A stretch of DNA of 40,205 bases, from the IMG/VR virus record IMGVR_UViG_3300037044_000259, positions 1-40,205 of that record; one strand, written 5' to 3'. Both the position numbers and the translations under genes were made by a program. Below, piece after piece: positions 1 through 40,205 of this stretch. The DNA comes from a virus. Taxonomy: Duplodnaviria > Caudoviricetes. The first letter of the stretch is position 1, and every line of letters starts with the position of its first letter. The notes below the pieces were generated by a model. The model ran no database searches and was not told the origin of the DNA. It worked only from the letters and a program-made list of their open reading frames with translations.

Positions 1-19
1 TCAACTCCTGTCAGCGGCT
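1..19 (+). tRNA. 3' end of a tRNA gene (Thr-like); probable attL core
   Basis: TCAACT-CCTGT-CAGCGGC-T reads as T-loop (T)TCAACT, 3' T-stem strand, 3' acceptor strand and discriminator T, with no encoded CCA. It implies a GCCGCTG 5' end, typical of tRNA-Thr, and lies at the end of an integrase gene. The rest of the tRNA is outside the window. Confidence 0.65.
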
Positions 20-1536
20 TTTTTCGATTCGAACGACCGGGATTCAGAAGCAGCCGGCACACTCGAGGAGTGGCCCCGCTGCAACGAATCGGTCAACCCC
101 GCGGCGTCCAAGACGCTAAGAACCGACGAAGATGCTTGCGGCTCGGAATCCGCGGGGTTGACCGGAATGTTGTAAACAGGGTGAGCATCTTCGTCGTGGA
201 CATCATGCCCATCGACCACTCCGGTTGTCAAGTCGGAATTTTTTACAAGAACCGGATTGTGCATAACTTTCGGCGCAAGGGGGCAAAGTCTGAGGATCGC
301 CGCCCGCTGGTCCTCCATGCTCGGGTCGAAGTACCGCATGTTGACGCCGCCTTTGTGCCGCATCAAGAAATCGACCATCAAGCCGTCGACTCCCGAACGC
401 CGCATCTCAGTCGAAAAGAACTTGCGGGCTGAGCGCGGCGCGTAGCTGCGCCCACGGTCGTCGTGCTTGTCGATCTTCGCCCGCTGGGCGTCCTTGTTGA
501 ACGCACTACTCACGATCGGGAACACGAATGAGCCGTCGAGATCCGGCGACACCGGCCGCTTTACCGGAGGCACCTTTTTCTTGCGTCGGTTGTTGTGGAC
601 AACTACGACCGGGGTTTCCTTCGCCAGTTCCCGCATCGCTTCCCGGTGCATTTTCAGGAGCTTCACGAGCTCGGGATGCAGAATGACGTCCTGCTCTTTG
701 CGGTTCTTCTGAATGTCTTTGGTCCAGTGAATGTGGGCGATTTTGTGGTCGAGCCGCATGTGCCGCTTCCATTCGAGCTTCGCGGCCTCGCCCGGCCGAA
801 GCCCTCCGAGGAACATGATCAGCTGCTGGAGCGGGCGGTTCGAGCGGCGGTATCCGCAGGTGAACTCGCGGGCGCACGCGGCCATGAGCTGGCGTTCTGC
901 CTCCTCGCGCGTTGCTGCACGCACGCCGGGCCCGCCGTCATCCGGGCAGGTCGGGACGTCGTCGAGCATGCCTTTGGGGTTGAATCCGCGGCGTGCCAGG
1001 AACTCGGAGAAGCCTCGAACGATGGTGACCGCGCGGTTGACGCTCTTGCCGATCCACTCGCTATTTGCTCGTTTCTTGGCGGCGATCAGCTCCATCGACG
1101 TGGAGCAGATGTCGTCCGGGCTCGTCCAGCTGCCGAGCTCGATGCACTCAAGCAGCAGCATCTTGTACGAGTAGGCGGTGCCGGGCTTACGCCCGAACGT
1201 CAGAAGCACGGCGGCGTACTCCTCAACGAGCGCGGGCAGTCCGCCTGGTGCCGCGTCAATGCGGCCGGCGATAACGGATTCGGGATGCGCGTCCTGCGCC
1301 CCCCTGCTCGTCGGTGCAAGGGTCGGCATACGAACCACGGTACCTGAGCGGCCTCCGCGATCCAAACGAATTTGTGCACCACCGCGAGGATCAACCTCGA
1401 CAGTTATCGTGATGCGCACGACATCGCCGGACGGAAACGGATACGTATCCATCACCCTGCCCCGGAATTTCCCCGCCACAAAGTTGTGGATTCCCAACGC
1501 CGTGTGTGATGCGCCGCAATGGGCTAGGTAGTTCAC
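1..1536 (-). CDS. int: tyrosine recombinase / phage integrase
   Basis: Motifs GLRPGE (R), KNRK (K), PRSARK (HxxR position), LMRH and MRYF (catalytic Y), with a helical core-binding region upstream. The true start may be the ATG at 1452. Confidence 0.9.
   Translation of the reverse strand: MNYLAHCGASHTALGIHNFVAGKFRGRVMDTYPFPSGDVVRITITVEVDPRGGAQIRLDRGGRSGTVVRMPTLAPTSRGAQDAHPESVIAGRIDAAPGGLPALVEEYAAVLLTFGRKPGTAYSYKMLLLECIELGSWTSPDDICSTSMELIAAKKRANSEWIGKSVNRAVTIVRGFSEFLARRGFNPKGMLDDVPTCPDDGGPGVRAATREEAERQLMAACAREFTCGYRRSNRPLQQLIMFLGGLRPGEAAKLEWKRHMRLDHKIAHIHWTKDIQKNRKEQDVILHPELVKLLKMHREAMRELAKETPVVVVHNNRRKKKVPPVKRPVSPDLDGSFVFPIVSSAFNKDAQRAKIDKHDDRGRSYAPRSARKFFSTEMRRSGVDGLMVDFLMRHKGGVNMRYFDPSMEDQRAAILRLCPLAPKVMHNPVLVKNSDLTTGVVDGHDVHDEDAHPVYNIPVNPADSEPQASSSVLSVLDAAGLTDSLQRGHSSSVPAASESRSFESKKAADRS
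50..196. ncRNA. candidate structured RNA with interleaved inverted repeats
   Basis: Perfect inverted repeats 90-104/150-164 (15 bp) and 124-136/184-196 (13 bp) in A-B-A'-B' order, plus hairpins at 50-82 and 104-116. Confidence 0.5.
202..231 (-). promoter_or_regulatory. sigma70-like promoter pointing toward att
   Basis: TTGACA (231-226)-N18-CATGAT (207-202), with an AT-rich tract upstream (237-248). Confidence 0.45.
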
Positions 1537-1600
1537 CCTGTCTTAACATTTTTTTAGACATGGCTTTGGGCGCGTCCAGAGGCCGCTCGCGGCAAAAGAA

Positions 1601-1617
1601 TGTCCCAATTTGGGACA
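1601..1617. promoter_or_regulatory. 17-bp operator-like palindrome
   Basis: TGTCCCAA-T-TTGGGACA in the divergent int/HTH intergenic region, with a related imperfect TGTC...GACA palindrome at 1539-1560. Confidence 0.55.
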
Positions 1618-1945
1618 CGTGCGGTATGCCGGTTGGCGATCTTGGGAGGCCGTGAAGCCACAGGAGATCATCCGTTTCATCAACAAGCAGTGCGTGCTCC
1701 AGGAGCTGACGCAGTTCGACTTGGTGGCACGGACCGGTTATCCCAGAGCGAATCTGAGCAGGTGGTTCAGCGGCAGGCGCGGAATGAAGCTCGACCAGGT
1801 GTCCCGAGTGCTCGGGGCCATGGGGTACGAGCTGGACATCCGGAGCCTCGCCCATGGCAAACCCAAGCGTCTCAAAGCCACTCCGAAAGCACCTCGTGCC
1901 GATCGGCAGCCTGTCCGCCGACCCGGCAAACGCAAGGCTTCATGA
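1610..1945 (+). CDS. XRE/Cro-type helix-turn-helix regulator
   Basis: LTQFDLVARTGYPRANLSRWFSGRRGMKLDQVSRVLGAMG is a typical HTH_3 pattern. The start is uncertain (GTG at 1652 is possible). Confidence 0.8.
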   Translation: MGHVRYAGWRSWEAVKPQEIIRFINKQCVLQELTQFDLVARTGYPRANLSRWFSGRRGMKLDQVSRVLGAMGYELDIRSLAHGKPKRLKATPKAPRADRQPVRRPGKRKAS

Positions 1946-3323
1946 TCAGCGGTCGATCGATGCGATCGCGAACAGCCTGAAGCGGTTCGGGCAGCAGAAA
2001 CCCATCGTGTGCGATGCCGCAGGCGTGACCGTCGCGGGCGCCGGCCTCTTGGCTGCCGCCGTGCAACTCGGCTGGACACATGTCGCCGCCGTTCGCTCTC
2101 AGCTCGTCGGTGCCGAGCGTGTCGCCTACGGGATCGCCGATAACCGAACCGCCGAACTCTCGACATGGGATGACGACGCGCTCCGCGCGTTGGTCGGCTC
2201 GATGCCTGAAGACATGGCCGCGGCATCTGGCTACACCCAGGACGAGCTCCAGCAGCTTCTTGCCGGCGACGAGGGAGGCGGCGTGCACCAGGACGAGATC
2301 CCGGAGCCGGCGAAGGTCGCTGTCTCGAAGCTGGGCGACGTGTGGATCCTCGGCAAGCACCGACTGATGTGCGGCGACTGCACCGAGCCGGCGGACGTTG
2401 CAGCGCTCATGCAGCGCGAGAAAGCCGCGCTCTTCGCGACCGATCCGCCGTACCTGGTCGACTACGACGGCACGAACCATCCGCAGTCGTTCACCAGCGG
2501 CAAGAGCAAGGACTGGTCACAGACGTACGGCACCACCTGGGACGACGCCGACGGCAACACCGATCTCTACGACCGGTTCATCGCGGCTGCGGCTCCACAC
2601 CTCCGCGAGAATGCCCCGTGGTATTGCTGGCACGCGAGCCGTCGGCAGGCGATGCTCGAGGCGGCATGGGTGAAGGCTGGCGCCTTCGTGCACTGCCAGA
2701 TCATCTGGGCGAAGAACAGACCCATTCTGACACGCACCTGGTATCTCTGGCAGCACGAACCGTGCCTGATGGGCTGGATCAAGAGCAAGAAACCCAAGTC
2801 CATCGCAGGTGTTGATCGGCAATCGACGGTCTGGAGTGTCGACACGATTCCCAACGGAGACGATCGGCCTGATCACCCGACACCAAAGCCGATTGAGCTG
2901 TTCGCGATCCCGATGCAGCAGCACACGCTGATCGGTGAGATCTGCTTCGAACCTTTCAGCGGATCCGGCACGCAGATCATCGCCGCAGAGCAGCTGGGCC
3001 GGCGCTGCTTCGCCATCGACATACAGCCGCTGTACATCGACGTGGCCGTGCGGCGATGGGAAGCGCTCACGGGTAAGCAGGCCGTTCTGGAGGGAACGAA
3101 GCGAACATGGGCACAGGTTGCCAAGGCCCGCGGTGTGGCGTTGGATCGTGCATGCCCACAGCGCCCAAGCGTCCCTGCCGAAAGCCCGGCTGCCGAAACC
3201 TCACCGACAAAGGCTGGTGCGAGGCCCACTTCCAAGAGAACAAGCCGAAAGCCTGGGCGAGCACAGAAGGCTCGGCGCACTCGCGGGGATACGGCACGGT
3301 CTGGAGGAAGGTCCGCCGCCTGA
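1854..3323 (+). CDS. ParB-N domain fused to an N6A/N4C DNA methyltransferase
   Basis: N-terminal ParB-like motifs (NARLH, SLKRFGQQKPIV, IADNRTAE) followed by TDPPY, HPTPKP and FEPFSGSGT (beta-class order). Confidence 0.92.
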   Translation: MANPSVSKPLRKHLVPIGSLSADPANARLHDQRSIDAIANSLKRFGQQKPIVCDAAGVTVAGAGLLAAAVQLGWTHVAAVRSQLVGAERVAYGIADNRTAELSTWDDDALRALVGSMPEDMAAASGYTQDELQQLLAGDEGGGVHQDEIPEPAKVAVSKLGDVWILGKHRLMCGDCTEPADVAALMQREKAALFATDPPYLVDYDGTNHPQSFTSGKSKDWSQTYGTTWDDADGNTDLYDRFIAAAAPHLRENAPWYCWHASRRQAMLEAAWVKAGAFVHCQIIWAKNRPILTRTWYLWQHEPCLMGWIKSKKPKSIAGVDRQSTVWSVDTIPNGDDRPDHPTPKPIELFAIPMQQHTLIGEICFEPFSGSGTQIIAAEQLGRRCFAIDIQPLYIDVAVRRWEALTGKQAVLEGTKRTWAQVAKARGVALDRACPQRPSVPAESPAAETSPTKAGARPTSKRTSRKPGRAQKARRTRGDTARSGGRSAA

Positions 3324-17224: not shown

Positions 17225-19892
17225 GGTCGTGCTCTCGGCGGACACGGCGAAGTTCATCGCCGGGATGGATCAGTCGGAGCGGAAGACGACCTCGATGGGG
17301 CGGTCGGTCGCCTGGCTGGGCGACAAGACCGCCATCATGGCCGGAAAGGTCCGGTCGGCGGCGAACTCGCTCCTGAGCCTGCGTACGGCCGTCATAGGGG
17401 CGGTGGCCGGGATCGCTGGCACAGTGGTCGTTGGCCAGTTGAACCGCGCGTCGGACGAGATCGACAAGCTCGGGAAGATGGGCAAGCGGCTGGGGATTCC
17501 GATCAAGGAATTGTCGGCGATGCGGCTGGCCGCGCTCGACGCGAACATCGAGATCGAGCAGTTGGCGGGCTTCGCGGGCAAGGCCCAGAAGAACATCGCC
17601 GAGATGGTGTCGAAGGGGATCGCCAGGCTCAATCTGGGCACGCAGGTGATTCGGTTGACGGATCTCAACGGTCGGGTTCGGACGATCACGGAACTGATGC
17701 CGGAGCTTGCCAAGGGCATCGACTCGGCGTCGAGCGCTGCCGAGAAGATTCGGCTGTCGGAGAAGATCTTCGGGCGCGGGGGCGGGGCGGCGTTTCTTCA
17801 GCTGCTCACGGACGGCGGCGACTACATCAAGAACATGGGCGAGCAGACCGAGCGCGCCCGGAAGCTCGGGGTGTTGTTCACCGACGACCAGGTGAAGCGG
17901 CTCACCGCGTACAACGATTCCATCACGCACCTGGGGCAGGCCTGGCTGGGCGTGAAGGTGAAGATCGTCAATGAGGTGGCGCCGGTCCTGACCGAGCTGC
18001 TCGAGTCGTCGTCCGAACGCCTCGCCAAGATGCCGGCGTTGATCAGGGCAGCAGCGGGGGCGGCAAAGGCCACGCTCTTTGGCGGTGCCACAGAGGGTGC
18101 GCAAAGCCGGCAGCTCGTCGGAGATCTCCGGGACAAGACCGCCGCGGCTTTGAAGACCACGGCCGTCGAAGTCGGGCGAGTTGTCGGCACGGCTTTTATT
18201 GAGGCTGTTACCACGGGATTGACCGCGGCAGGTCCGGTGATCGCGGACGTATTCCGGGACAACATCGGTCCCGTGTTGAACGTGATCCCTGGCGTCAACA
18301 TCGCCAAGTCGGAGAAGGGCAAGCTGGCCGAATTGCTGGGGGCACCCGTCCAGGTCGACGACATGCGACGCCGCATTCTCGATCTTCAAAAGGATCTGGA
18401 AAAGCTCCGAGATCCGGACAACACCGTCTTTCGCGAGCAGTCACCGCTCGGGTTGGAAGGCACGATCGAAGCCGAGATCAAGTCGATCGAGGACAAGATC
18501 AAAACCCGGCTCGCGATCAGTGCTGCCGACATTGCCGCTCAACGCCAGGTGGTTGAACAGGAGTCGATCAATCGCGCAAGAGAGATCTCCGACGCGGTTG
18601 TCGCCGGCATGCAGGCAACATCGCAGGCAGCCGAGACCGCTCAAAGTTCAATCCGCAAGGCATGGGGCGAGTTCGACACCGCGGCCGACGCCGTGATCAA
18701 GATGTACGCCGCGACAGAGCCGCCCGAGACGAGCAACAAACGGACGCTGGCCGACTACTTCAAGATGGGCGGAGATGCCGTTACCGGCTTCATGTATCAG
18801 CTGAAGCAGGCTGAAGGCCCGACCACGAAGGTGCTTCAGAAAATCAAGGAGAAGATGCTCGAGGCGATGGAAGTCGCACAGGAACTCGAAGAGCGGCAGC
18901 TGGCCGCTTCGGGTGACGAGATCGGCGCCAAGCGACTCAAGCTCATTCGCGGTTTCGTCAAAGAGCAGCAGGAGCTGGTCGAACGCTTCGGCGCTTTGTC
19001 GGATCCGCTGATCGAGCAGATGAAGAAGGTTCAGGCCGCGGAGCTTCAAGCCTTCGACCTGGAGCCGCTGGACAAGATGCTGGAAAAGATAAAGGGAATG
19101 GTTCCCGACAGTGGCTCTGGTCCTGTTGCAGACCTGGCAGCTCAGATGCAAATGCTCAGGGTCGGATTTATCGACGGAAAGGTTTCGTCGGAAGAGCTTC
19201 GCGCGGAGTTGGATCGCCTCGAAAGAAGGCTGCGAGGAATCCAGGAACGTGAGAAAACCTACGGACAACTGCTCAGCGAAACCATTCAAGGCTTCGCGCG
19301 ATCGGCCAGTGACGCGTTTGCAGACATGGTGGTGGATGGGGAAACGTCATTTAACCAGCTGCTCAAAAGTTGGACGAAGACGCTGATCTCGATGACCGCG
19401 CAGAAGTTCCTCTTCCAGCCTCTGTTCGATGCGTTCGCCGGCGGGGCGTCGGGGTTGTTCAAGCCGGGCGTATCACCTTCCTCAGGTTATTACGCACAAA
19501 ACGGACTTGTGGGAAGTGCACGCGGAAACGCCTTCTCTGGCGGACAGATCACTCCATTTGCAAAGGGAGGCGTGGTCTACAAACCTGCCGTCTTCCCCAT
19601 GGCCCGTGGCATGGGTCTCATGGGCGAGGCTGGTCCCGAGGCCATCATGCCACTCACTCGGATCGGGGGGCATCTGGGCGTCCGATCGGCCGGAAGCTCC
19701 ACAACCGTGCAGATCATCGATCAGCGAAGCGGCGGTGCTCCCGTCGAGGTCCGAGAAAGCACGGGACCGGACGGGCGGAAAATGGTCCAGGCCATCGTTA
19801 GGGATCAGGTTGCCAAAATGGCAACGGACGGGAGCCTCGATCGGGTCCTTGGGCCGGCGTACGGGGCACGCCGAACGCCAGTTGCCAGATAG
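17205..19892 (+). CDS. tape measure protein
   Basis: 895-aa Ala-rich helical protein; N-terminal LEVVLSADTAKF; C-terminal lambda-type FAKGGVV..P..F...GLMGEAGPEAIMPL. Confidence 0.93.
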   Translation: MPPMKLEVVLSADTAKFIAGMDQSERKTTSMGRSVAWLGDKTAIMAGKVRSAANSLLSLRTAVIGAVAGIAGTVVVGQLNRASDEIDKLGKMGKRLGIPIKELSAMRLAALDANIEIEQLAGFAGKAQKNIAEMVSKGIARLNLGTQVIRLTDLNGRVRTITELMPELAKGIDSASSAAEKIRLSEKIFGRGGGAAFLQLLTDGGDYIKNMGEQTERARKLGVLFTDDQVKRLTAYNDSITHLGQAWLGVKVKIVNEVAPVLTELLESSSERLAKMPALIRAAAGAAKATLFGGATEGAQSRQLVGDLRDKTAAALKTTAVEVGRVVGTAFIEAVTTGLTAAGPVIADVFRDNIGPVLNVIPGVNIAKSEKGKLAELLGAPVQVDDMRRRILDLQKDLEKLRDPDNTVFREQSPLGLEGTIEAEIKSIEDKIKTRLAISAADIAAQRQVVEQESINRAREISDAVVAGMQATSQAAETAQSSIRKAWGEFDTAADAVIKMYAATEPPETSNKRTLADYFKMGGDAVTGFMYQLKQAEGPTTKVLQKIKEKMLEAMEVAQELEERQLAASGDEIGAKRLKLIRGFVKEQQELVERFGALSDPLIEQMKKVQAAELQAFDLEPLDKMLEKIKGMVPDSGSGPVADLAAQMQMLRVGFIDGKVSSEELRAELDRLERRLRGIQEREKTYGQLLSETIQGFARSASDAFADMVVDGETSFNQLLKSWTKTLISMTAQKFLFQPLFDAFAGGASGLFKPGVSPSSGYYAQNGLVGSARGNAFSGGQITPFAKGGVVYKPAVFPMARGMGLMGEAGPEAIMPLTRIGGHLGVRSAGSSTTVQIIDQRSGGAPVEVRESTGPDGRKMVQAIVRDQVAKMATDGSLDRVLGPAYGARRTPVAR

Positions 19893-19894
19893 GC

Positions 19895-19924
19895 TTGCAT
19901 TGCTCCGGCTGGGCCTGTTACCAT
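19895..19924 (+). promoter_or_regulatory. putative moron promoter
   Basis: TTGCAT-N18-TACCAT with an extended -10 TGn, immediately after the tape measure stop. Confidence 0.45.
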
Positions 19925-19944
19925 TTGGCCAGCGCGGAGGTTGT

Positions 19945-20364
19945 ATGTTTAAGGCATTGGGATGGCTGGCTATTTCGATTGTTGTTCTCGCGGGATGCGA
20001 GGGTTCGACTGCATCGATCGGTTTGAAGTCCACCGAGCAGCTGAAGGAAGTTCCCACTCCACAGCTCGTGTCGGCGTTCGGCACCGGAAAGTTTGTTTAC
20101 GGGGAAAGCTCGCGAATGCGGGCGGAGATCGTCGAGCGGAACGTCTTCACGCCGGACCAGTGGAAACGCATTGACGACATGTCCCCGAAGGTTGGCGACT
20201 CTGAACTGCTTGTGTTCGCCGCTCTCGGAGCTCCTCAAAGAGCCACAGACACGAATGACATCATGGGTTATTCGCGCGCTTTTTACTACGATGGCTCGAC
20301 GAGTCGGTCTCAAAGCGTGATCGTGATGAATGGCAAGGTCGTCAGTATGACGAAGTACCAGTAG
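19945..20364 (+). CDS. lipoprotein (moron), SmpA/BamE-like C-terminal pattern
   Basis: GGAGG RBS; signal peptide MFKALGWLAISIVVLAG-C with lipobox; VGDS...V.AALGAP...FYY...V...NGKV. Confidence 0.75.
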   Translation: MFKALGWLAISIVVLAGCEGSTASIGLKSTEQLKEVPTPQLVSAFGTGKFVYGESSRMRAEIVERNVFTPDQWKRIDDMSPKVGDSELLVFAALGAPQRATDTNDIMGYSRAFYYDGSTSRSQSVIVMNGKVVSMTKYQ

Positions 20365-20385
20365 GCCATCGTCACGAGGTATCGG

Positions 20386-21141: not shown

Positions 21142-21149
21142 TCTCGGGC

Positions 21150-31527: not shown

Positions 31528-31892
31528 GATCGCGCTCCATTGCTCGTCCGGCCCTGAGCCGATACTACCGGCGAGTTGGAGAACTTCTTCTGCCCATGGG
31601 CCGGCTCTTTGGCCATGTCCCGAAGCACCTGCTTGATCTTCAGGGCGTGCTTGCGGCGCTTGAACGCGGTCACCCTTGAGCTGCGGAGGCCGTCGACGCT
31701 TGCGCCGAGGACCTTCGCAGCCAAGAGTAATTCGTCACGGACCTCGTCCGCACGCATATAGAGACCGCCGCTCACATCGTGCTGCCGAAGCTCGGAGGCG
31801 AGCTGGAAGCACCGGCTGCCGAGTTGAGCCAGGAGCGCGTGCAGGGACGCGCGCTTGTCCGACTCGATGAGATGGGCGGGTTCGTCGCTCAC
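31479..31892 (-). CDS. hypothetical protein
   Basis: GTGA-coupled to the upstream gene; helical and basic. Confidence 0.55.
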   Translation of the reverse strand: MSDEPAHLIESDKRASLHALLAQLGSRCFQLASELRQHDVSGGLYMRADEVRDELLLAAKVLGASVDGLRSSRVTAFKRRKHALKIKQVLRDMAKEPAHGQKKFSNSPVVSAQGRTSNGARSCRQRREVSDSSRRSR

Positions 31893-32830
31893 CTGGTCCT
31901 GATCGCCTCCGATGCCCAGCTGTTGCGGAGCTGTTCAAGCAGCAGCCACCATTCCGGACCGGCGGCGAAGTCGTGCTTGAACCGGTTGTCGCCGCCAAGC
32001 CAGAGCACGGCGTCGATTTCCTTCCGGCGGATCAGTTCGAGCGTCCCCTGCCACTGGGGCTGGGAGAGGAGCTTCTTCGCGAAACCGCCCGTCGCGGCCC
32101 AGTGGCTCTCGGGCGAGATGTACGCGATCACCGGCTTGCCGAAGCTCTTGGCCTGGTCGATCGTCGCCTCGCACCATTCGAGGTGCTGGTTGACGTCCGG
32201 GCCGACCGCGTACAGGGACGGGACAACAAAGTCGACATCCTCGATGAGGCCCGCCTCGATCGCCGTGAAGAAGTTGGACGACTTCCAGAGACGCTGCTCC
32301 CATGCGTACCGAGGATGTTTGTTCAGGATGTTCCAGTTCACTTCGCCGTTGGGCATCGCGGCGTACGCACCGAGTTTGCCGGTGAATCCGCCCTCCCGGT
32401 ACGCCCTTAGCAGCCTTCGATAGGAGTCGATGTCGTTGCAGACCTCGCGTGCGCTGTTCTCGCGGATGTCGAGACGCAGAGTTCGGACTCTGCCCAGGAT
32501 CTCATCCCAGAGGTCTTCGAAATCGACGACCACCGGCACGTTGTCATCGAGCTTGCCGGCCCGTGCCTTGACGGCGTCGAGCTCGATCACGCGTTTGCCG
32601 ATGGCGGGATCCGCCAGGTTGGGCCACCAGGTCCGGCTCTCCTCGACGATCGCGGAGAGGCCAAGCTCCGAGGGAGGCGGCTTGTTGAGCATGTCGAGCT
32701 TGTCGTAGAAGGTGGTCTTGCGCTTCGGCACGGGGCGCACCGTTTTTAAGTCCATCGAATCGGCTTGCGGCCTTGCTTCGAGGTTGGTTCCTGGTGGCAG
32801 AGGCATCACGGCAGATTTCTGATCGAGCAT
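31889..32830 (-). CDS. TIM-barrel glycoside hydrolase-like protein (hyaluronidase/GH56-like motifs)
   Basis: PVVVDFE (DxE), DFVVPSLY, GKPVIAYI, DAVLW strand motifs; AGGAG RBS. Confidence 0.55.
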   Translation of the reverse strand: MLDQKSAVMPLPPGTNLEARPQADSMDLKTVRPVPKRKTTFYDKLDMLNKPPPSELGLSAIVEESRTWWPNLADPAIGKRVIELDAVKARAGKLDDNVPVVVDFEDLWDEILGRVRTLRLDIRENSAREVCNDIDSYRRLLRAYREGGFTGKLGAYAAMPNGEVNWNILNKHPRYAWEQRLWKSSNFFTAIEAGLIEDVDFVVPSLYAVGPDVNQHLEWCEATIDQAKSFGKPVIAYISPESHWAATGGFAKKLLSQPQWQGTLELIRRKEIDAVLWLGGDNRFKHDFAAGPEWWLLLEQLRNSWASEAIRTR

Positions 32831-32869
32831 CGGGATCTCCTGAAAGGGTGGTGGGGGCGAGGGCCTCGG

Positions 32870-33130
32870 CTACCAGCCGAGGCTTTCGTTCTTGGCTCTG
32901 GTCTTCTTGACGCGGGCGTGGAGGAGCGGTGTTGCGACGGGCGCATCCATGAAGTTGCGGGCGGCTTGGCACTCGTCATACAACGAGTACACAGTGGCGA
33001 GCAGGTCCTCGAAGAGCCCCGTGCGGCCCCGGATGCGTTCGGCAAGCACCTTGACCTCGTGCTTCATGAGCGCGAGACGCTGCTCCTCTTGCGGCGTCTG
33101 CTTTGGTTTCTTCTTCTGGGTCGGCATCAT
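32870..33130 (-). CDS. hypothetical protein
   Basis: GGAGG RBS; fills the gap in the minus-strand operon. Confidence 0.6.
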   Translation of the reverse strand: MMPTQKKKPKQTPQEEQRLALMKHEVKVLAERIRGRTGLFEDLLATVYSLYDECQAARNFMDAPVATPLLHARVKKTRAKNESLGW

Positions 33131-33140
33131 GCCTCCGGAA

Positions 33141-34925
33141 TTACCTGAGCTGTTTGGGAAAGACGACGTCGAGAGCTACAAAGCTCTGGGCGTCGGGATA
33201 GTCGAGGAAGCCTCGCGAGCGAAGCGAACCAGCCGCCTTTACGAACGAACTCGAATTTGCCGAGTAGCCGGCACCTTTGGCGCAGGCTTCTCGCGAGATC
33301 CTGGCTGGATAGACGTTCATCGCAACCCGCAACACGGCAGCCTCGGGGCCCGGTAGCAATCCGAGCAGCTTGGATTGGAAATCAGCCAGCGTCAATCGGA
33401 CGTCTGAACGTGGAGTCGCGGCCTCTCCCGCTCGCGTGAGGGCAAACGTGTCGGCGGTGGGATAAGAAATCAGCCCCTTAACCCGGAGCGACCCAGCCGC
33501 TTTGACAAAGCTGGATGAACTTGCGCTGTAGTTGGCGACCACTGCGACGGCTGGGCGTGTGGGATTCTCTTCGCCACACTTCGACCAGAATGCCAGCGCG
33601 TTCAGGATTGCCGTTTCCGGCCCCGTCAATCCATCGGCGGAGGCCCGATTGCCTCCGCCGCCAGTTGCACCACTCGCAGTAGGTGCATGTCGCGCCGCGT
33701 TTTCCTGGACGTCTCGCGGCGCCTTCACGTGGGTATCAGGTTTAGTTTGTGATGATCCGGGCCAAGGCTTGCTTGCCCGTTCAAAGTTCTTCTGGCTGTG
33801 CTCGTGCGCAACTTCAAACAGTTCTTTGACCAACTCATCGAGCCGCGATGCGATGCCGGACGCCCGGCTTGCCAGGCTATTGACGGAAAGGCTTTCGGTC
33901 TCGAGCAGCCCTCGCAGAGTCGCGATGTCCTCCTGTGCCTTCCCCAGCTCGCCGGCATCGATGCGGACCGGTGTTGCCTGCTGATCGCGGAGCTGACGCT
34001 TTAGCTCTGCAATCTGCGTCTTGAGTTTGGCCGGGTCGTTTGCATCGACCTCTGTCTTGACCTGCACCATCTTCGCCGAGAGCTCGTCCAAGTTGACGCT
34101 GGCCCAGCCCTTTGGCATCTTGAACTCGGCGTGCTCCGGAGTCGCGCTCGAGTCGTATGTCTTAATCCGCGGAAACTTCACGCGTTCGAGGATCTCGCTG
34201 CCTGGTGCGTACAGCCAGCCCTCGCCAACGGGAAGACGCGCGAGAGAGTCGGTCACGCTCTTCGCTTGCTTGGTATCGCCGACGCCGGCGACCCAGCCTT
34301 CGACTGCTTTTCGATCCTGGACTGAGATGACGCGGAGTGCGAAGAGCACCTGTGTTTGGGTGAGTGAGTCCTTGTGCACCTTCGCGGGACGCTGACTGCT
34401 GAGCACGACCTGCACGCCCAGCGATCGCCCTTGGCTCAAGAGTTTGTTGGTCCAATGGAGGAGCATGATCTCCTCCCGCATCGGGTTCTGGGGAGCGAAC
34501 TCGTGGGCCTCGTCCAGCACGAGCATGAGGCGAGCTTTGTTGCGGCGAAAGATCTCGCCGAGGAAGCCGATCATGAACGTGCACTTTGCCGCCTCCGAGA
34601 AGTGTTTCAGGTCGATGATGCAAGGCCGGTTGCCTGTTGCCACGAGTTCACCGACGACGGCGCCTGAGGTTTGGTCGATGGGTACGTCGGCGTGCTCGCC
34701 CCCGAAGATGACGAGCGGATAGCCGGCCGACTTGCCGTCCGCGGACGACTTGAGTCCCCACCAGTCGCCCTTGGGATCGACGATGCAAACGCGCTGCTGC
34801 GCCTCGAGGAGCTGCTCGACGAACCACTTGATCGTGTACGACTTACCAGACCCCGTGATGCCCAGGGCAGCCCAGTGGAACTTGAAGATCTCGGACGGAA
34901 GTGTGAGAGTCGGCGTGAGCTTCAT
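33141..34925 (-). CDS. HerA/FtsK-like (DUF87-type) ATPase with tandem C-terminal winged helices
   Basis: Walker A GITGSGKS, IVDPKGD, Walker B LVLDEAH, GRSLG, SQRPAKV; repeated YSAxSSSFVKAAGSLR. Start taken at the ATG at 34925. Confidence 0.88.
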   Translation of the reverse strand: MKLTPTLTLPSEIFKFHWAALGITGSGKSYTIKWFVEQLLEAQQRVCIVDPKGDWWGLKSSADGKSAGYPLVIFGGEHADVPIDQTSGAVVGELVATGNRPCIIDLKHFSEAAKCTFMIGFLGEIFRRNKARLMLVLDEAHEFAPQNPMREEIMLLHWTNKLLSQGRSLGVQVVLSSQRPAKVHKDSLTQTQVLFALRVISVQDRKAVEGWVAGVGDTKQAKSVTDSLARLPVGEGWLYAPGSEILERVKFPRIKTYDSSATPEHAEFKMPKGWASVNLDELSAKMVQVKTEVDANDPAKLKTQIAELKRQLRDQQATPVRIDAGELGKAQEDIATLRGLLETESLSVNSLASRASGIASRLDELVKELFEVAHEHSQKNFERASKPWPGSSQTKPDTHVKAPRDVQENAARHAPTASGATGGGGNRASADGLTGPETAILNALAFWSKCGEENPTRPAVAVVANYSASSSSFVKAAGSLRVKGLISYPTADTFALTRAGEAATPRSDVRLTLADFQSKLLGLLPGPEAAVLRVAMNVYPARISREACAKGAGYSANSSSFVKAAGSLRSRGFLDYPDAQSFVALDVVFPKQLR

Positions 34926-35224
34926 GCTGTTGTGTCCAGGCTGTTGCGGATCGGTCGGCCGTATTCGTCTGTCATGGGCGGGCGCGGAGGGGGAGGAGGC
35001 CAGCCCTTCGTCGGTGTGGGCTGGGCCACACGCTGAGTGGAACCTCCGGCGTTCTCCCACTCACGGATTCGAGACTTCTCGGCAGCGTCGATCAGAGCAC
35101 GACCGATGCGCTCCGCTTCGTCGGCGCTGAGCGATTCGCGATCGGATCCAAAGTACTGCTCAAAGGGAGTGGGCACGAGGAAGCTGACGGTGCCGCGTGG
35201 TCCTGGTTGGATGTGGCTGATCAC
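34922..35224 (-). CDS. hypothetical protein
   Basis: Coupled by 4-nt overlaps on both sides; LSADEAERIGRALIDAA helix common in small phage proteins. Confidence 0.65.
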   Translation of the reverse strand: MISHIQPGPRGTVSFLVPTPFEQYFGSDRESLSADEAERIGRALIDAAEKSRIREWENAGGSTQRVAQPTPTKGWPPPPPRPPMTDEYGRPIRNSLDTTA

Positions 35225-35787
35225 GATTCACCTCCAGCAATCGCGTTCGCCCGCGCGTCGAGCAGCCGCTCGTATTCCTCGGCGGTCTCGGTCAGCGGGC
35301 GGATCTTGATGACGATGCCCGGCTGGCAGTCGATCGAGACGTACCACTTCAGCGGCTCGCCGGCACAGACTTGCTTGTCATCGAGCCAGACGCGGGCTTC
35401 GGTCAGTGCGTCGAGTACGCACTTGTCCATGTTGTCGCGGTCGGGCTTCTGCGGCATCCAGATCGGGCCGCGCGGATACTTCGGCTTCAGCAGCTCCTTC
35501 GTCCGCGCGAAGTAGGCGAACACATCAACGCGGAGCGGCCCATCCAGCGGCGGGTTCGGTGCAAGCTTCCGCGCGGCACGAATGATCTTCTGCTTCCATG
35601 CGTAACCGTCGGATTCGTCGTCCTCGTACTGACGGGTGGACGGGACCTTGCGGCCCTTCTTTCCCGAGAAGCGATAGATGACGCACGACCGGGCTCGGGG
35701 CTGCCCGCACGGTTCGCCGGCGACGACGATCGTGAGCGGCTCGACAGCCGCGACGATGCCGGGGATTGGCAGCGTGGCTTGGCTCAA
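35221..35787 (-). CDS. rusA: RusA-family Holliday junction resolvase
   Basis: GEP.GQPRAR, PLDGPLRV, KPDRDN..K.VLDALT....W.DDKQV. Confidence 0.9.
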   Translation of the reverse strand: MSQATLPIPGIVAAVEPLTIVVAGEPCGQPRARSCVIYRFSGKKGRKVPSTRQYEDDESDGYAWKQKIIRAARKLAPNPPLDGPLRVDVFAYFARTKELLKPKYPRGPIWMPQKPDRDNMDKCVLDALTEARVWLDDKQVCAGEPLKWYVSIDCQPGIVIKIRPLTETAEEYERLLDARANAIAGGES

Positions 35788-36416
35788 GCTCCACCTCCCG
35801 ACCGCTTGAGCTGCTCGCAGATCGCGTCACGCTTGGCGGGATCGATGAACTGGAGTCCGCACAGGTTGAACGCGTCGACCTCGGTCGGTACCGACACACG
35901 CTGCCCGCCGGCGTCGACCAGGAAGCCCTCGATCGAGGCCTGCTTGTCCTGCGGGATGCCGTGGTGCTTCTTCCAACGGGAGAGGAAGATCTGGCCGAAC
36001 TCGGACGGGCCGGTCCGCATGATCTCGATCCAGCCGCGGTTGGAATCGCCGTGCGCGTACCGGTGGATCTGCACGCCGATCGGATACGACTCGTCGCCGC
36101 GCACCATCGTCATGTTCAGCGAGCAGTACTTGAACCCGGGCTTGAATCCCTCGACGGCCTCCCCGAAGGTGCGCCGCCTGGTCTCATCCCCGAACAGACC
36201 GTCGGTTCTGATCGTGCCGGAGATCGACCGGTACAGCTCGTCGCGGTCCTTGTCGACGGGCATGCGGGCGGTGAACTCAAGATCGCCGACCTCCTCACGG
36301 CCGCGGCGGACGCTGCCGACGACCATGCAGCTGTCCGCCGGCATGTTCCACAGGATCATCAGGGCGCGTGCGGCGTCCTGCGCCATCGCGAGCGGGAGAC
36401 GTGTGCCTGTGCTCAT
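35784..36416 (-). CDS. minimal PolX-family (pol beta-like palm and thumb) protein
   Basis: VVGSVRRGREEVGDLEF, RTGPSEF, VPTE.D.F...GL.FI.P..R. Start at ATG 36416. Confidence 0.85.
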   Translation of the reverse strand: MSTGTRLPLAMAQDAARALMILWNMPADSCMVVGSVRRGREEVGDLEFTARMPVDKDRDELYRSISGTIRTDGLFGDETRRRTFGEAVEGFKPGFKYCSLNMTMVRGDESYPIGVQIHRYAHGDSNRGWIEIMRTGPSEFGQIFLSRWKKHHGIPQDKQASIEGFLVDAGGQRVSVPTEVDAFNLCGLQFIDPAKRDAICEQLKRSGGGA

Positions 36417-36619
36417 GACTCGGACTTCTCCTTCCTGCTCCGCGGCTCGCGAGCACGGCCGGCCTGGGCGAAGAGCGTGACTGGTGTGTGATGGACGGGA
36501 AAGTTGCGGGCAATGGCGGCATCGAGCGAGTTCGCGCGGTCCTCGCATCCGATGCACATGCCGTACTTGTCGCGGCACGGTTGCCCGCACCGCCGGCAGT
36601 TGAAAGGGAGACGCTTCAT
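36413..36619 (-). CDS. small zinc-finger-like protein
   Basis: CRRC...CIGC; ATGA overlaps with both neighbours. Confidence 0.55.
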   Translation of the reverse strand: MKRLPFNCRRCGQPCRDKYGMCIGCEDRANSLDAAIARNFPVHHTPVTLFAQAGRAREPRSRKEKSES

Positions 36620-38436
36620 TCGTCTTCGCCCTCCTGCTCATCCGTGTCGGCCTTGGACTTCGGCGCCTTCTTCGCCGCCGGCTTCTTCGAGTCCTTGGCG
36701 GCGGGCTTCTTCAGCTTGTCCATTTCGGCTTTGACGAAGTCGTCCTGCACGGGTGGCGGCTTCACCTCAAGACCGAACGCTTTGAGCACGGCGTGCTGGA
36801 ACGCAATCGGAGCGTCGTCAGTTGTGGGCGGCGCGAACAGGCCGAAGTTCGTGCCGCACGATTTCTGAATCTCCATCGCATTGTGGATGCTCGGGTTCAC
36901 AGTGAGCCGGAGCAACCGGAGCAACTCGGGAGAAGCGAAGTCCTTGGGCTTGGCGTTGTACGTGCACGCCGCTTCGTATGGCTTGGATCGCTGCACCAAG
37001 GCGAACATGCACCATCGCGCTTCCTCGGCTGCCAGATACTTCGCAAGCGCGGGAGTTGCGACTTTGTTCTCCCACTCGGTGGCTGCCGCTTGGTACTTCC
37101 GGTTTCCCTGAATCTTCGCGTCGTACTCGGGCGTGCCGTAGTCGCCAGGCCGACGGACGTGGGCGCTCGGTGTGCTCTTCGCCGGGCCTTTCTTCTTTTC
37201 CGACCTGGCTTCGATCCGCTCCTGGGCTCGTTCCTTCACAGCGAACGGCGAAACGAACGCGGGCGTCAGAACGCGGATCTCGGAGAGGCCGAGGTGCTTG
37301 TCGGCGTCCTTCTGCTTGCCGGCCTTCGCGGCCTCGTACTTGTTGAGCACCTTGGTGACCGTGCCCGACAGCGCTCGGCTCGCCGCGGCAGACTTCTCCT
37401 GGTAACACGACGGCTTGAGGCAGACGCCGGACTTGGGCTCGGGCCGCTCGCTCGTGCCACCGTACCGGCCGACTTTGTTGACCGAGCGGTGATCGTCGGC
37501 GTACAGCGTCTTGCCCTCGAAGAGCCCGGGATTGTTCAGCGAGTTGTGCGGGCATTCGACGCACGCGGGCTTCGCATCGAACGGCTGCTCCAGCTTCCAC
37601 GGCACCTGCGCGAGGCTGAAGCAGACGCGGGCGACCTCCTGCCGCAGTTGCTCGATCGGGCCTGCGTGGTCCTCGCCGGACATCGCCTCTGCGAGATCGC
37701 CGCCGATCGCGTAGGCCTCGGCCAGTTCGTCTCGGCGCTTCGGGTCGGCGACCTTGGCGATCTCCTTCGCGTGGGCGAGCGGGAGCCGGCCGGACGACAC
37801 CAGGTCGCGGGCCTTGCCACTGAAGCCGGCGAGGAACATTCGATCGCGCACCCAGGCGGTGGGCTTGCCGACGCGTCCGGCGACCGTCGCTATCACTTCC
37901 GAGCGGATCTGGGCCATGATCGAAACGCACGCCGTCGGATCTCCGCCCTCGAGCTTGAGTCGCTCGGCCATCTTGATCTCAAACAGATCAGCGATCGCCA
38001 CCGCCTCTCCGATGGGTGACGGATCCACGCGCTGGATGTTCTCGACCGCGCGTGCCTCGCTCTCGGCGTTGGCCGGTGCCTCGCTCGAAACCACGACGGC
38101 CGAGATGCGCTGATGCCCAAGCCGCTTGCACGCCCGCAGCCGACGCTCACCGAACACGAGCTTGAAGCGGTTGTCGCCGATCTCGACCACGCGGATCGGC
38201 TGTTGCAGGCCCGCCGTGGCGATCGACTGAGCGAGCTCGTCGATCTTCAGTTCAGAGTCCGTCATCGCCTCGCGGTCCTGCTTGGACACGATCTCGATCT
38301 TGTCGATCGGGATCTGCTCCACCTTGCCGGCGAGGATTGCTTCCTTGCCAGCCATCACACCAGGCGGCAGCACGAGCGGTGCGATCGCTGCGGGCTTCTT
38401 GGACTCTGGCTTCTTGCTCTTCGTTGCGGTCTTCAT
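36616..38436 (-). CDS. ParB/RepB/Spo0J-family protein
   Basis: ELAQSIA..GLQQPIRV, LVFGERRLRA, ENIQRVD.SP..EA, HTH, then CxxC...C....C cluster. Confidence 0.9.
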   Translation of the reverse strand: MKTATKSKKPESKKPAAIAPLVLPPGVMAGKEAILAGKVEQIPIDKIEIVSKQDREAMTDSELKIDELAQSIATAGLQQPIRVVEIGDNRFKLVFGERRLRACKRLGHQRISAVVVSSEAPANAESEARAVENIQRVDPSPIGEAVAIADLFEIKMAERLKLEGGDPTACVSIMAQIRSEVIATVAGRVGKPTAWVRDRMFLAGFSGKARDLVSSGRLPLAHAKEIAKVADPKRRDELAEAYAIGGDLAEAMSGEDHAGPIEQLRQEVARVCFSLAQVPWKLEQPFDAKPACVECPHNSLNNPGLFEGKTLYADDHRSVNKVGRYGGTSERPEPKSGVCLKPSCYQEKSAAASRALSGTVTKVLNKYEAAKAGKQKDADKHLGLSEIRVLTPAFVSPFAVKERAQERIEARSEKKKGPAKSTPSAHVRRPGDYGTPEYDAKIQGNRKYQAAATEWENKVATPALAKYLAAEEARWCMFALVQRSKPYEAACTYNAKPKDFASPELLRLLRLTVNPSIHNAMEIQKSCGTNFGLFAPPTTDDAPIAFQHAVLKAFGLEVKPPPVQDDFVKAEMDKLKKPAAKDSKKPAAKKAPKSKADTDEQEGEDE

Positions 38437-38492
38437 CGAACTGACTCCTCGAGGTCTCGCCGGCGTTCACCCGATCGCCGGTCCGATCTCGC

Positions 38493-38846
38493 TTAGGGCT
38501 GGGACTTCTTGCTGGGGCGGCGAGCAGCTGCTCGCTTCACGACCTGGGCTGTCTTCACGGGCTTGAAAAAGCCCTGCCGCTTGAGAGCGGTCTTCGGAAT
38601 GCGGCAGGCAGACAACGGCTCGGGCTTGGATTGCTGCTCCAGCCGCGGCTGCTCGACTTCATCGCCGGCGAGATTGAGCAGCTGGCGACCGAGCGCCCGC
38701 ACTTCATCACGCGTCCCCAGGATTCCGACCGTTTCGGTTTCACTCTTGAAGAGCAATCCCCGCTGCCGTTCGGACGTTGAAACCTCGTTGACTTCCGTTG
38801 CCTCGTGCGACGTGCAAACGTCATCGCGTTCGATTGTGAATCTCAA
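38493..38846 (-). CDS. hypothetical protein
   Basis: Coupled to the upstream ORF; GAGGAGG RBS. Confidence 0.55.
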   Translation of the reverse strand: MRFTIERDDVCTSHEATEVNEVSTSERQRGLLFKSETETVGILGTRDEVRALGRQLLNLAGDEVEQPRLEQQSKPEPLSACRIPKTALKRQGFFKPVKTAQVVKRAAARRPSKKSQP

Positions 38847-39157
38847 AGATCGTCCTCCTCGTCGTCATCGAATGTGGGGGAGTCGTCGTCCCAGTCCTCG
38901 TCATCGACGTCGTGATCGGCGGTCAGCTCTGCGACGAGCGCATCCTCGGTGCTCTGCGCTTCAGCCTGCGCCCGCTTCAGAGTGTCGAAGGAGGTGCACG
39001 CCGTCGCCCCCATGAGTTCCGGCGAGCCTTCAAGATGAAAGCGAGCGCTCTTTTGGCGGATCGTCCAGGTGAACCTGTCGCCATCATCGTGGACCTCGGA
39101 CAGCGCAGTCCAGATGCCTTCCGATTCCAGCTTCCATTCGAGATTGCGAAGGCTCAT
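38843..39157 (-). CDS. hypothetical acidic protein
   Basis: GGAGG RBS; ATGA coupling; F.TL..AQ..AQ motif common in small phage proteins. Confidence 0.65.
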   Translation of the reverse strand: MSLRNLEWKLESEGIWTALSEVHDDGDRFTWTIRQKSARFHLEGSPELMGATACTSFDTLKRAQAEAQSTEDALVAELTADHDVDDEDWDDDSPTFDDDEEDDL

Positions 39158-39495
39158 CGGCGCACCTCCGCAGCCACTGGGCTTCGGTCGACGATCGCGA
39201 CTGCCGCGGCCTTGACGGTGACCTGGACCTCGACGTCTGCCTCAAGCACACGCCCTTCCCAAGACTCGATGCGGAGCCGAAGCTGGCAATCGCCAGACTG
39301 GTCCGTCTGATGCCACCATGTGTCCGCGAAATCCTCGAAGATCTCCGGGAACTTCAAGGCGCCCATGCTCCAAGCGCCGGACACCTGCGACCAATCGAGT
39401 TCGACCGCTCGCACGCCGGTGGACTTTCGCACCTTGACGACCGTCGCCCGGTACTGCCCGTGTCTCAGCTTTCTCAGCTTTGCCAGCGTGTTCAC
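39154..39495 (-). CDS. hypothetical protein
   Basis: GTG at 39495 overlaps the upstream stop (GTGA). Confidence 0.55.
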   Translation of the reverse strand: MNTLAKLRKLRHGQYRATVVKVRKSTGVRAVELDWSQVSGAWSMGALKFPEIFEDFADTWWHQTDQSGDCQLRLRIESWEGRVLEADVEVQVTVKAAAVAIVDRSPVAAEVRR

Positions 39496-40205
39496 GCCAC
39501 ACCCCCGCGGCCGTCGCGCGTGGCCTCGAGGTCCGCCCTGGTGTGCTTCTTGACGTACTCCTTCACCGATCGCCTCACCGCGGAGACGACGTTCTCGCCG
39601 GCGTTGAGCTTGTCGCTCAGGTTCTTGCCGTCCTCGATGAACTTGTAGAGCTGGCCGATCGTGACGAAGCCGGCATCGACCAGCTTCTGCTTCGCGCGGT
39701 CGTTGACGTCGAGTTCGTTGATGCTCGCCTGGAGATGCTGGTTCCATCCCTCGGGCTGCTCGCCGCCGACGATCTTCAGTTCCGGCGTCTCGCCCTTCTT
39801 CGCCTTGGGCGTGCCAGGCTTTCCGACCGGGGCGTCGCTCTCTTCCTCGTCGTCATCCTCGGCCTCGAAGTCCGGCACGGTGACATCGGCATCGCTGAAG
39901 AGCTGGGGCTCGTCGGCCTTCTCGACGCAGACCGCGATCTCGCCGTCGGCCCACTTGATGGTGGAGTTCAGCCGCTCGAGCTCGCGAACGCAGCGACCGA
40001 AGTCGGCATCCAGGCGTTCCTGCTTCAACTTCGACTCGTGGCCGGAGAGCTTCTCGCGGTGGAGCTGGCTCATCTCGTCGCGGGCGTGGTCGCGTGCCTC
40101 GCGCATCTTCTTCTTCGCCGTCTCTGCCTTCGTGCGGAGATCGACCAGGTTGCGGATGCGCTGACAAACGACGGCGGGAAAGGCCTGATATTCCTTCTTG
40201 CTCAT
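39492..40205 (-). CDS. coiled-coil protein with C-terminal RNAP alpha-CTD-like domain
   Basis: SINELDVNDRAKQKLVDAGFVTIGQL...NAGENVVSAV resembles alpha-CTD I.ELELSVR..N.L..AGI.TIGDL...N.G.KS..EI. Confidence 0.65.
   Translation of the reverse strand: MSKKEYQAFPAVVCQRIRNLVDLRTKAETAKKKMREARDHARDEMSQLHREKLSGHESKLKQERLDADFGRCVRELERLNSTIKWADGEIAVCVEKADEPQLFSDADVTVPDFEAEDDDEEESDAPVGKPGTPKAKKGETPELKIVGGEQPEGWNQHLQASINELDVNDRAKQKLVDAGFVTIGQLYKFIEDGKNLSDKLNAGENVVSAVRRSVKEYVKKHTRADLEATRDGRGGVA

What the first reader, a model, noticed from the sequence alone, without database searches (positions are those of the whole stretch)
50..196. Interleaved long inverted repeats (pseudoknot or switch RNA) hidden between the integrase catalytic domain and att
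Seen: A CGGTCAACCCCGCGG (90-104) is the perfect reverse complement of A' (150-164), and B CGACGAAGATGCT (124-136) of B' (184-196). The order A-B-A'-B' is pseudoknot topology. Further hairpins lie at 50-82 and 104-116. Both stems extend through several G-U pairs on the + strand (81-86/168-173, 137-139/181-183), favouring a + strand RNA that trails the tRNA and is antisense to int; however, a minus-strand promoter would start at about 195, exactly at B'. Two stems each longer than one helical turn are hard to form together, suggesting alternative folds. Inference: an undescribed integrase/att-associated ncRNA or conformational switch (antisense control, sib-like retroregulation, or a recombinase cofactor). 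The integrase tail over it looks like low-information read-through.
Basis: partly seen in the sequence, partly recalled or inferred. Interest (0 to 1): 0.8.

Follow-up and report, generated by a model that had tools for sequence, protein, structure and literature searches.

The report
Switch RNA leader inside phage integrase
Two crossing base-paired stems, kept by compensating changes across related phages of Planctomycetes bacteria, sit right behind a predicted promoter inside the tail of the integrase gene and likely form a two-state RNA leader for the phage's early genes, from which insertion into the host chromosome would cut it off.

Summary
The repeats are real and conserved, but the RNA is most likely on the integrase (minus) strand, not the plus strand. 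In 32 of 35 distinct close relatives with enough sequence (window included), two interleaved stems follow a TTGACA/-10 promoter inside the integrase tail. Their sequences differ and covary. The first arm starts at the predicted +1, internal wobbles favour G-U on the int strand (47 vs 18), and a DnaA-box-like site lies upstream in 19 of 32.

The attachment site lies inside int. In three complete prophages the far end carries the in-frame rest of Int (a conserved helix) and the early genes, so integration separates promoter and leader from the early operon. Folding predicts the short stem forms first and a roughly 30-bp rod replaces it at about +105.

Best reading: a co-transcriptional switch leader controlling early-gene expression, loosely like the P4 seqA/CI leader; no seqC-like second target was found. 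A true RNA knot is not excluded. There is no Rfam match, and transcription itself is not shown.

The parts
1..19 (+). 3' end of host tRNA-Thr at the prophage junction; 4-bp att core (CGGC) at 15-18. Int reads across it antisense and stops at 1-3.
   Evidence: L094 has the full tRNA-Thr(TGT); core at the same place in relatives
41..46 (-). TGARTC-type motif about 24-29 bp from the att core; probably a DNA site for recombination, not part of the RNA fold (inferred)
50..82 (-). P3 hairpin after the rod; hairpins of differing sequence occur here in some subclades only
78..116 (-).
124..136 (-).
138..173 (-).
165..183 (-). C/A-rich linker L1 between the P1 5' arm and the P2 core (family composition over 14 nt: C194 A146 G56 T52)
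184..196 (-).
202..231 (-). Predicted sigma70-type promoter inside the int tail: -35 TTGACA 231-226, -10 CATGAT 207-202
258..266 (.). DnaA-box-like 9-mer, 35 nt upstream of the -35 element (DnaA consensus recalled from memory)
   Evidence: 19 of 32 loci, no other match in 195 kb of the same loci
1..1536 (-). Tyrosine integrase ORF (database form P0002 is 442 aa, i.e. 1-1329); catalytic Tyr codon 333-331; disordered tail carries promoter, RNA and att
1610..1945 (+). Small HTH regulator divergent from int, heading the methylase/terminase/capsid genes; the only repressor-like hit among the window proteins tested
31889..40205 (-). Early genes (ParB-like, RusA, HerA-like and others); these would follow the promoter and leader after excision (inferred from relatives; the window is cut before the far att end)

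Best explanation
The repeats are the two crossing stems of a conserved structure that likely acts as the 5' leader RNA of a predicted promoter hidden in the integrase tail; it is predicted to fold first into the short stem P1 and then into a long rod P2, and would control expression of the early operon that is joined to it only in the unintegrated phage. Step by step: (1) Shown by sequence: attP lies inside int, and integration leaves promoter and leader at one prophage end and the Int C-terminal helix plus early genes at the other. (2) Inferred: RNA polymerase starts at about 196-195 on the minus strand. (3) Predicted: P1 (196-184 with 136-124) holds from about +72 to +100, then the rod takes over, freeing the 5' arm and placing its complement at the rod tip. 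(4) Inferred, least certain: P1 is the read-through state of a fresh transcript; finished rod RNA, which the prophage could keep making, pairs through its tip with the 5' arm of new transcripts, blocks P1 and attenuates early transcription, as P4 CI does with seqA. The fast-changing arm sequences would then set phage specificity. Confidence by step: RNA leader on the int strand about 0.85; two-state folding about 0.6; this regulatory output about 0.35.
For: Both stems in 32 of 35 distinct close loci with enough sequence; the pattern was not found in 22 distant integrases. Covariation: 10 of 32 pairs (4 sequences) and 13 of 27 pairs (7 sequences) change on both sides, 0 of 500 shuffles reach this, slid controls give 0-6. 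A near-identical strain shows G92A with C162T, a compensatory pair (one contig, depth 4.75). The -35 is TTGACA in 23 of 32 and TTGAC in 29 of 32, in two codon phases (24/8), so DNA rather than peptide is conserved. P1 began 1-8 nt after the -10 in 26 of 28 loci when the start was free over 32 nt. Internal wobbles: G-U on the int strand 47, A-C 18 (p=2e-4). Nascent RNA folds P1 in 31 of 32; the rod beats the P1 state in 32 of 32, median switch at +105. Three complete prophages show the split, with frames agreeing across the core; P0028 is the unsplit form of a G350-like integrase. The tail promoter is the top promoter-like site in 4 of 4 prophages (partly circular).
Against: No transcript, start site or fold is shown. 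Whole-fold energies do not pick a strand (int strand lower in 15 of 32; P2 16 of 32; P1 13 of 32), and the window's own wobbles and one L094 change favour the + strand; counting all stem positions the bias was only 58 vs 43. No seqC-like second target downstream: exact matches at chance level, and 2 of 19 loci with z<-2.5 at unrelated positions. No clear intrinsic terminator after the leader or in the early region scanned in G067, so the output step has no direct support. ViennaRNA cannot fold pseudoknots; a crude estimate puts P1 plus crossing pairs below the rod in 30 of 32 (median -7.9 kcal/mol). L120 has the promoter without the stems; L095 and L096 lack the tail. Loci are related, so counts are not independent.
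Confidence: 0.5

Rival explanations
1. Both stems coexist as a stable long pseudoknot or true knot: the rod core forms, its apical part opens, and the short free 5' end threads through to re-form P1, giving a nuclease-resistant RNA or a roadblock.
For: P1 core >=10 bp and crossing pairs >=10 in 26 of 32, the knot-candidate criterion in PMC4829277. The 5' arm starts at +1 with no overhang to thread. The crude energy favours coexistence in 30 of 32. P1 pairing is kept very strictly (96-100% of cells).
Against: In 18 of 32 the single strands are too short to span all crossing pairs, so the full rod and P1 cannot coexist. About half of the P1 3' arm is paired inside the rod tip (median 7 of 13.5). 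The energy estimate ignores geometry.
Confidence: 0.15
2. A cis-acting antiterminator (HK022 put-like or EAR-like; both recalled) that modifies RNA polymerase so that only transcripts from the tail promoter cross the long early operon.
For: It starts at +1 of the strongest promoter-like site ahead of a long early operon. In G067, G002 and G350 a host tRNA points straight into the early genes, so something must keep these quiet.
Against: Primary sequence is poorly conserved (37% mean column identity), unlike a protein-binding RNA. Terminator-like sites in the G067 early region are not above shuffles (3 vs 6.7 in 12 kb).
Confidence: 0.12
3. A decay timer: the P2 rod is an RNase III-type substrate that cuts both the early transcript and the int mRNA inside its frame (sib-like retroregulation), and P1 delays it.
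For: Long irregular rod of about 31 bp in every locus; it lies within the translated int tail. RNase III substrate shape is recalled knowledge.
Against: No cleavage determinants were tested. It does not explain why the P1 arm is fixed to the +1 of the internal promoter.
Confidence: 0.1
4. A discrete RNA that binds the integrase and helps set recombination direction.
For: The Int model shows core-binding and catalytic domains with no folded N-terminal arm-binding domain; the RNA sits next to att.
Against: The arms match neither the att core nor the tRNA by inspection. The Int C-terminal swap offers a direction control with precedent in Mx8. No binding was tested.
Confidence: 0.06
5. The repeats work as DNA (inverted protein-binding sites or single-strand hairpins).
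For: Energies do not choose a strand; most pairs are Watson-Crick; real DNA sites (DnaA-like box, TGARTC motif, att arms) flank the element.
Against: Arm sequences differ completely between phages while pairing, spacing and tie to +1 are kept; G-U bias 47 vs 18; strand-specific C/A-rich linker.
Confidence: 0.07

Closest known systems
Phage P4 immunity leader (seqA - CI RNA - seqC), as described in PMC4825925 (passages); P1/P7 c4 with a1b1 targets (Weinberg 2010 table and supplement hits)
   Same: Promoter-proximal leader of an early lytic operon in which a 5' segment is complementary to the loop region of a downstream hairpin RNA.
   Different: No Rfam c4 match; no downstream seqC/a2b2-like target found; one continuous 8-16 bp helix; buried in the int frame and cut from its operon by integration; processing not shown.
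Myxococcus phage Mx8 int with attP inside the coding sequence (review PMC6070905, passages)
   Same: attP within int; integration gives Int a new C-terminus.
   Different: Here the tail also holds a conserved promoter, a DnaA-box-like site and a structured leader, and the early operon lies across attP; the passages read report none of this for Mx8.
Integration-dependent immunity of mycobacteriophages BPs, Brujita, Charlie (PMC3694055, first third of the text read)
   Same: Recombination itself sets the regulatory state; simple Int apparently without an arm-binding domain; few regulators.
   Different: There attP is in the repressor and removes a degradation tag; here attP is in int and would unplug promoter and leader from the early genes.
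Knot-candidate pseudoknots such as ColIb-P9 repZ (PMC4829277, part 2 of 4 read)
   Same: Interleaved helices of 10 bp or more.
   Different: Here the first arm is the predicted 5' end of the RNA, and the second helix extends to a rod of about 30 bp that often cannot coexist in full with the first.

Membership tests
C4/CI antisense immunity RNAs | Match to a c4 covariance model | tested here: not met
   Rfam 15: 4 weak hits (E 0.38-4.1, far below gathering score) in window 1-2000; only tRNAs in 18 relative loci
C4/CI antisense immunity RNAs | Upstream target complementary to the loop of the RNA | tested here: met
   P1 5' arm pairs with the segment in the rod tip; covaries
C4/CI antisense immunity RNAs | Second, downstream target in the early operon | tested here: not met
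   Searches (18 loci; 19 loci): nothing consistent
C4/CI antisense immunity RNAs | Processing to a small stable RNA that causes termination in trans | not testable with these tools
   no usable RNA data
Mx8-type integrase with internal attP | attP inside int, C-terminus replaced on integration | tested here: met
   split in three prophages, frames agree, both protein forms on record
Mx8-type integrase with internal attP | The two Int forms differ in activity | not testable with these tools
   needs recombination assays
Integration-dependent immunity (BPs type) | attP inside the repressor gene | tested here: not met
   attP is in int; the HTH gene 1610-1945 is intact and on the other side of int
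Integration-dependent immunity (BPs type) | Int without an arm-binding domain | tested here: inconclusive
   AlphaFold model of relative P0007 has no folded domain before residue 31; true start codon uncertain
True RNA knot | Two interleaved helices each of at least 10 bp | tested here: met
   26 of 32 loci; criterion from PMC4829277
True RNA knot | Both helices formed at once in one molecule | tested here: inconclusive
   crude energy favours it in 30 of 32, but linkers are too short for the full rod in 18 of 32
put/EAR-like antiterminator RNA | Promotes terminator read-through in cis | not testable with these tools
   few terminator-like sites found; family features recalled

The most novel reading that the evidence does not exclude
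A natural RNA knot: the leader's 13-nt 5' end, which starts exactly at +1, threads through the loop of the long P2 helix and re-pairs for more than a full turn, giving a topologically locked RNA that a whole family of Phycisphaerales phages uses in an integration-operated lysis-lysogeny switch.
Probability: 0.12. Interest if true: 0.92.

Novelty: new variant of a known kind. Interest (0 to 1): 0.72.

Why it matters
It is a well-covarying phage RNA hidden inside a reading frame, a place that at least one large phage RNA survey excluded by design (PMC10690425 searched only intergenic DNA for DNA viruses). It points to a minimal lysis-lysogeny switch in which recombination itself unplugs the early operon from its promoter and leader, swaps the integrase C-terminus, and may read host replication state through a DnaA-box-like site. 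The family also gives about 30 natural, sequence-diverse, 110-nt candidates for testing whether RNA knots occur in nature; PMC4829277 (2016) treats that as open, and the abstract of PMC5381007 (2017) still calls it an enigma.

Tried and rejected
Rfam: no family. Exact search of viral contigs for arm A gave 83 matches that I did not examine further and took as likely chance. A single-protein locus search found nothing; the broader alignment was too divergent for the pattern search. Expression: no RNA holder listed; the four runs labelled RNA-Seq were guesses, three flagged as probably DNA, and held as contigs only, so they say nothing on transcription, start or strand. No excised-circle junction was seen in the four DNA runs laid on 1-700; contigs show presence only. 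Plus-strand RNA trailing the tRNA: rejected because the tRNA is at the opposite prophage end in G067, G002, G350 and promoter and wobble bias favour the other strand. A small protein starting at att: rejected because the Met arises from the att core in only one of several frames. Ribozyme, tmRNA piece, retron: no conserved core sequence, no Rfam hit, no reverse transcriptase among the 44 window ORFs scanned. Second targets for the arms: none consistent. Frameshift signal: no slippery site seen upstream by inspection. Order-wide and phylum-wide genome samples gave few or no extra members (4 of 401 at E<=1e-60; 1 of 401 at E<=1e-70). No complex prediction was run. In one search the G067 junction was mis-picked on a chance word and the P0028 comparison was mis-registered; both were redone.

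Full report
Observation. In 200 shuffles of the whole window, repeats of 13 bp or more occur 0.22 times and of 15 bp or more 0.02 times per window. The region folds far better than shuffles on both strands. Rfam has no family for it.

Context. The window is a 40.2-kb HK97-like prophage record cut at gene ends. The ORF over the repeats is a tyrosine integrase on the minus strand whose closest named relative, at 64% identity, is from a Phycisphaerales genome. That relative (L094) has an intact tRNA-Thr(TGT) right behind the same junction, so window bases 1-19 are the tRNA 3' end and Int stops inside it. A small HTH gene diverges from int and heads the methylase, terminase and capsid genes; the early genes lie on the minus strand at the far end.

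Relatives. Locus searches gave 10, 7 and 16 loci and genome searches added more. I dropped duplicates and near-duplicates (L090, L092, L105, L106, L109, L117, L121-L123, L125, L127, L130-L133) and loci cut too early (L100/L135, L110). That leaves 35 distinct close loci including the window. Thirty-two show both stems; L120 has a promoter-like site but stem scores in the shuffle range, and L095 and L096 have no tail, promoter or stems. L104 and L124 are the weakest of the 32. Ungapped stem scores were 27-41 (P1) and 22-61 (P2), against shuffle means of 18-21 and 19-24 with maxima of 25-33 and 30-46 in five loci; the window scores 36 and 42 against maxima of 26 and 33. Among 22 distant integrases that could be read (L150 could not), 17 had no promoter-like site and 5 had weak ones without this geometry, L155 being borderline.

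Covariation. With the structure fixed from one reference row, 10 of 32 pairs in the window's subclade (4 sequences) and 13 of 27 pairs in a second subclade (7 sequences) change on both sides; no shuffle of 500 reaches this and slid controls give 0-6. These controls do not remove relatedness. A near-identical strain has 7 listed differences in 1-300 (9 in all); the two that fall in the core stems are G92A and C162T, which pair with each other (one contig at depth 4.75).

Promoter and strand. A -35 hexamer (TTGACA in 23 of 32, TTGAC in 29 of 32) and a -10 with A2 and T6 sit in the tail in two codon phases; my script chose the -10 spacing for best score, so that match is partly by construction. 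With the start left free over 32 nt, P1 began 1-8 nt after the -10 in 26 of 28 loci, i.e. at the expected +1. A DnaA-box-like 9-mer (consensus recalled) lies within 75 nt upstream in 19 of 32, mostly at 31-35 nt, with no other match in 195 kb of those loci. Wobble positions flanked by Watson-Crick pairs are G-U on the int strand 47 times and A-C 18 times, and the linker is C/A-rich on that strand. Against this, the looser count was 58 vs 43, whole-fold energies do not pick a strand (15 of 32), and the window's own wobbles favour the plus strand. On balance the RNA is on the int strand, in the order 196-184, 164-150, 136-124, 104-90.

Attachment site inside int. The int frame is open from the catalytic Tyr through this region in 32 of 32 loci, against 1 and 0 for the other frames. 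Many relatives end in an amphipathic helix (consensus ADLLExxARLLR): 37 of 119 readable proteins by one pattern, 47 of the 163 held by another. AlphaFold gives a disordered tail and a confident helix at 449-466 of P0007. In unintegrated loci the helix end abuts or overlaps the next gene and early recombination/replication-type genes follow (named by inspection, not by a family search). In three complete prophages (G067, G002, G350) the far end holds a tRNA (Met, Met, Cys, read by eye), the att core, the helix and the early genes. Frames agree across the core, and the arms around it are complementary at 10, 16 and 13 of 16 positions. P0028 matches the G350 integrase for 131 residues from the RH motif up to the junction (223 of 250 upstream) and carries the helix. 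The tail promoter is the best promoter-like site on either strand in 4 of 4 prophages (the matrix was trained on these promoters). Two G003/G517 scans did not find the far end. So integration separates promoter and leader from the early operon, and it occurs in both orientations relative to the tRNA.

Folding model. RNA ending just after the P1 3' arm folds P1 in 31 of 32 loci. Full-length nested folds give a rod with a median of 31 pairs enclosing that arm, about half of which is paired in the tip; the rod is more stable than the P1 state in 32 of 32 and takes over at a median of +105. These programs exclude pseudoknots. A crude sum puts P1 plus crossing pairs below the rod in 30 of 32, but in 18 of 32 the linkers are too short for the whole rod to coexist with P1. 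A switch is therefore my best reading; a P1 plus P2-core pseudoknot or knot stays open, since 26 of 32 meet the 10-bp criterion of PMC4829277.

Mechanism. I commit to a co-transcriptional switch leader for the early operon, with the finished rod likely acting in trans on the 5' arm of new transcripts as P4 CI does on seqA (PMC4825925). The split by integration is shown from sequence; transcription and folding order are predicted; the regulatory output is inferred and weak, because no seqC-like target and no clear terminators were found.

Literature and novelty. Seen: PMC4829277 (part 2 of 4), PMC3694055 (part 1 of 3), passages of PMC4825925, PMC6070905, PMC2864571 (plus supplement hits), PMC5737381 and PMC10690425; other papers only as search listings. 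Ten searches returned no description of this element; the library lacks most subscription papers. The supplement of PMC5737381 could not be read and that of PMC10690425 was not searched; either could hold a related motif. HK022 put, EAR, lambda sib and RNase III substrate features are recalled. Two earlier AI notes of this scan describe what looks like the same arrangement in other genomes; they are not independent evidence.

Verdict. A real, conserved and apparently undescribed structured leader within an integrase gene, part of an integration-operated switch that combines features known separately from Mx8, P4 and BPs-type phages. Interest 0.72.

Noticed in passing
window 258-266; 19 of 32 loci: DnaA-box-like 9-mer upstream of the tail promoter in either orientation, mostly 31-35 nt from the -35, with others at 22 and 40-43, suggesting helical phasing.
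   Followed up: partly
G067, G002, G350 prophage ends (L163, L168, L170) versus L094, L098, L099, L112, L116, L124, L126, L128: This integrase family inserts at tRNA 3' ends in both orientations, with a 4-bp core between inverted arms (up to 16 of 16 complementary) and little duplicated tRNA sequence; targets include Thr, Met, Phe and Cys tRNAs.
   Followed up: partly
L163:19230-19330 and equivalents in L168, L170: In one orientation the host tRNA reads straight into the phage early operon, with no terminator-like site found in G067; how the lysogen keeps it quiet is unexplained.
   Followed up: partly
C-terminus of unintegrated-form integrases (e.g. P0007 449-466): Conserved amphipathic helix at the end of a roughly 90-residue disordered tail, lost on integration; possible directionality or coupling element.
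   Followed up: partly
window 41-46: TGARTC-type motif 24-29 bp from the att core in many loci; probably an accessory or arm-type DNA site.
   Followed up: partly
L108 versus L109: Same tail sequence that diverges right after the core: unintegrated and integrated forms of near-identical phages.
   Followed up: no
L120; L095, L096: L120 keeps the promoter but has a shorter tail without the two stems; L095 and L096 integrases end soon after the catalytic Tyr and carry internal stops in the genome search.
   Followed up: no
window 19429-21533 (+): Lower-GC insert between tail genes with a HIRAN-domain gene (20386-21141) and a DUF2513-like gene (21150-21533); possible moron.
   Followed up: no
window about 4197 (minus strand) and about 4064 (plus strand): The next-best promoter-like sites face away from each other near 4.1 kb, between the HNH gene and the terminase region.
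   Followed up: no
window 220-237 (+): Terminator-like hairpin with a T run overlapping the -35 element; could stop tRNA read-through into int in this prophage; conservation not checked.
   Followed up: no
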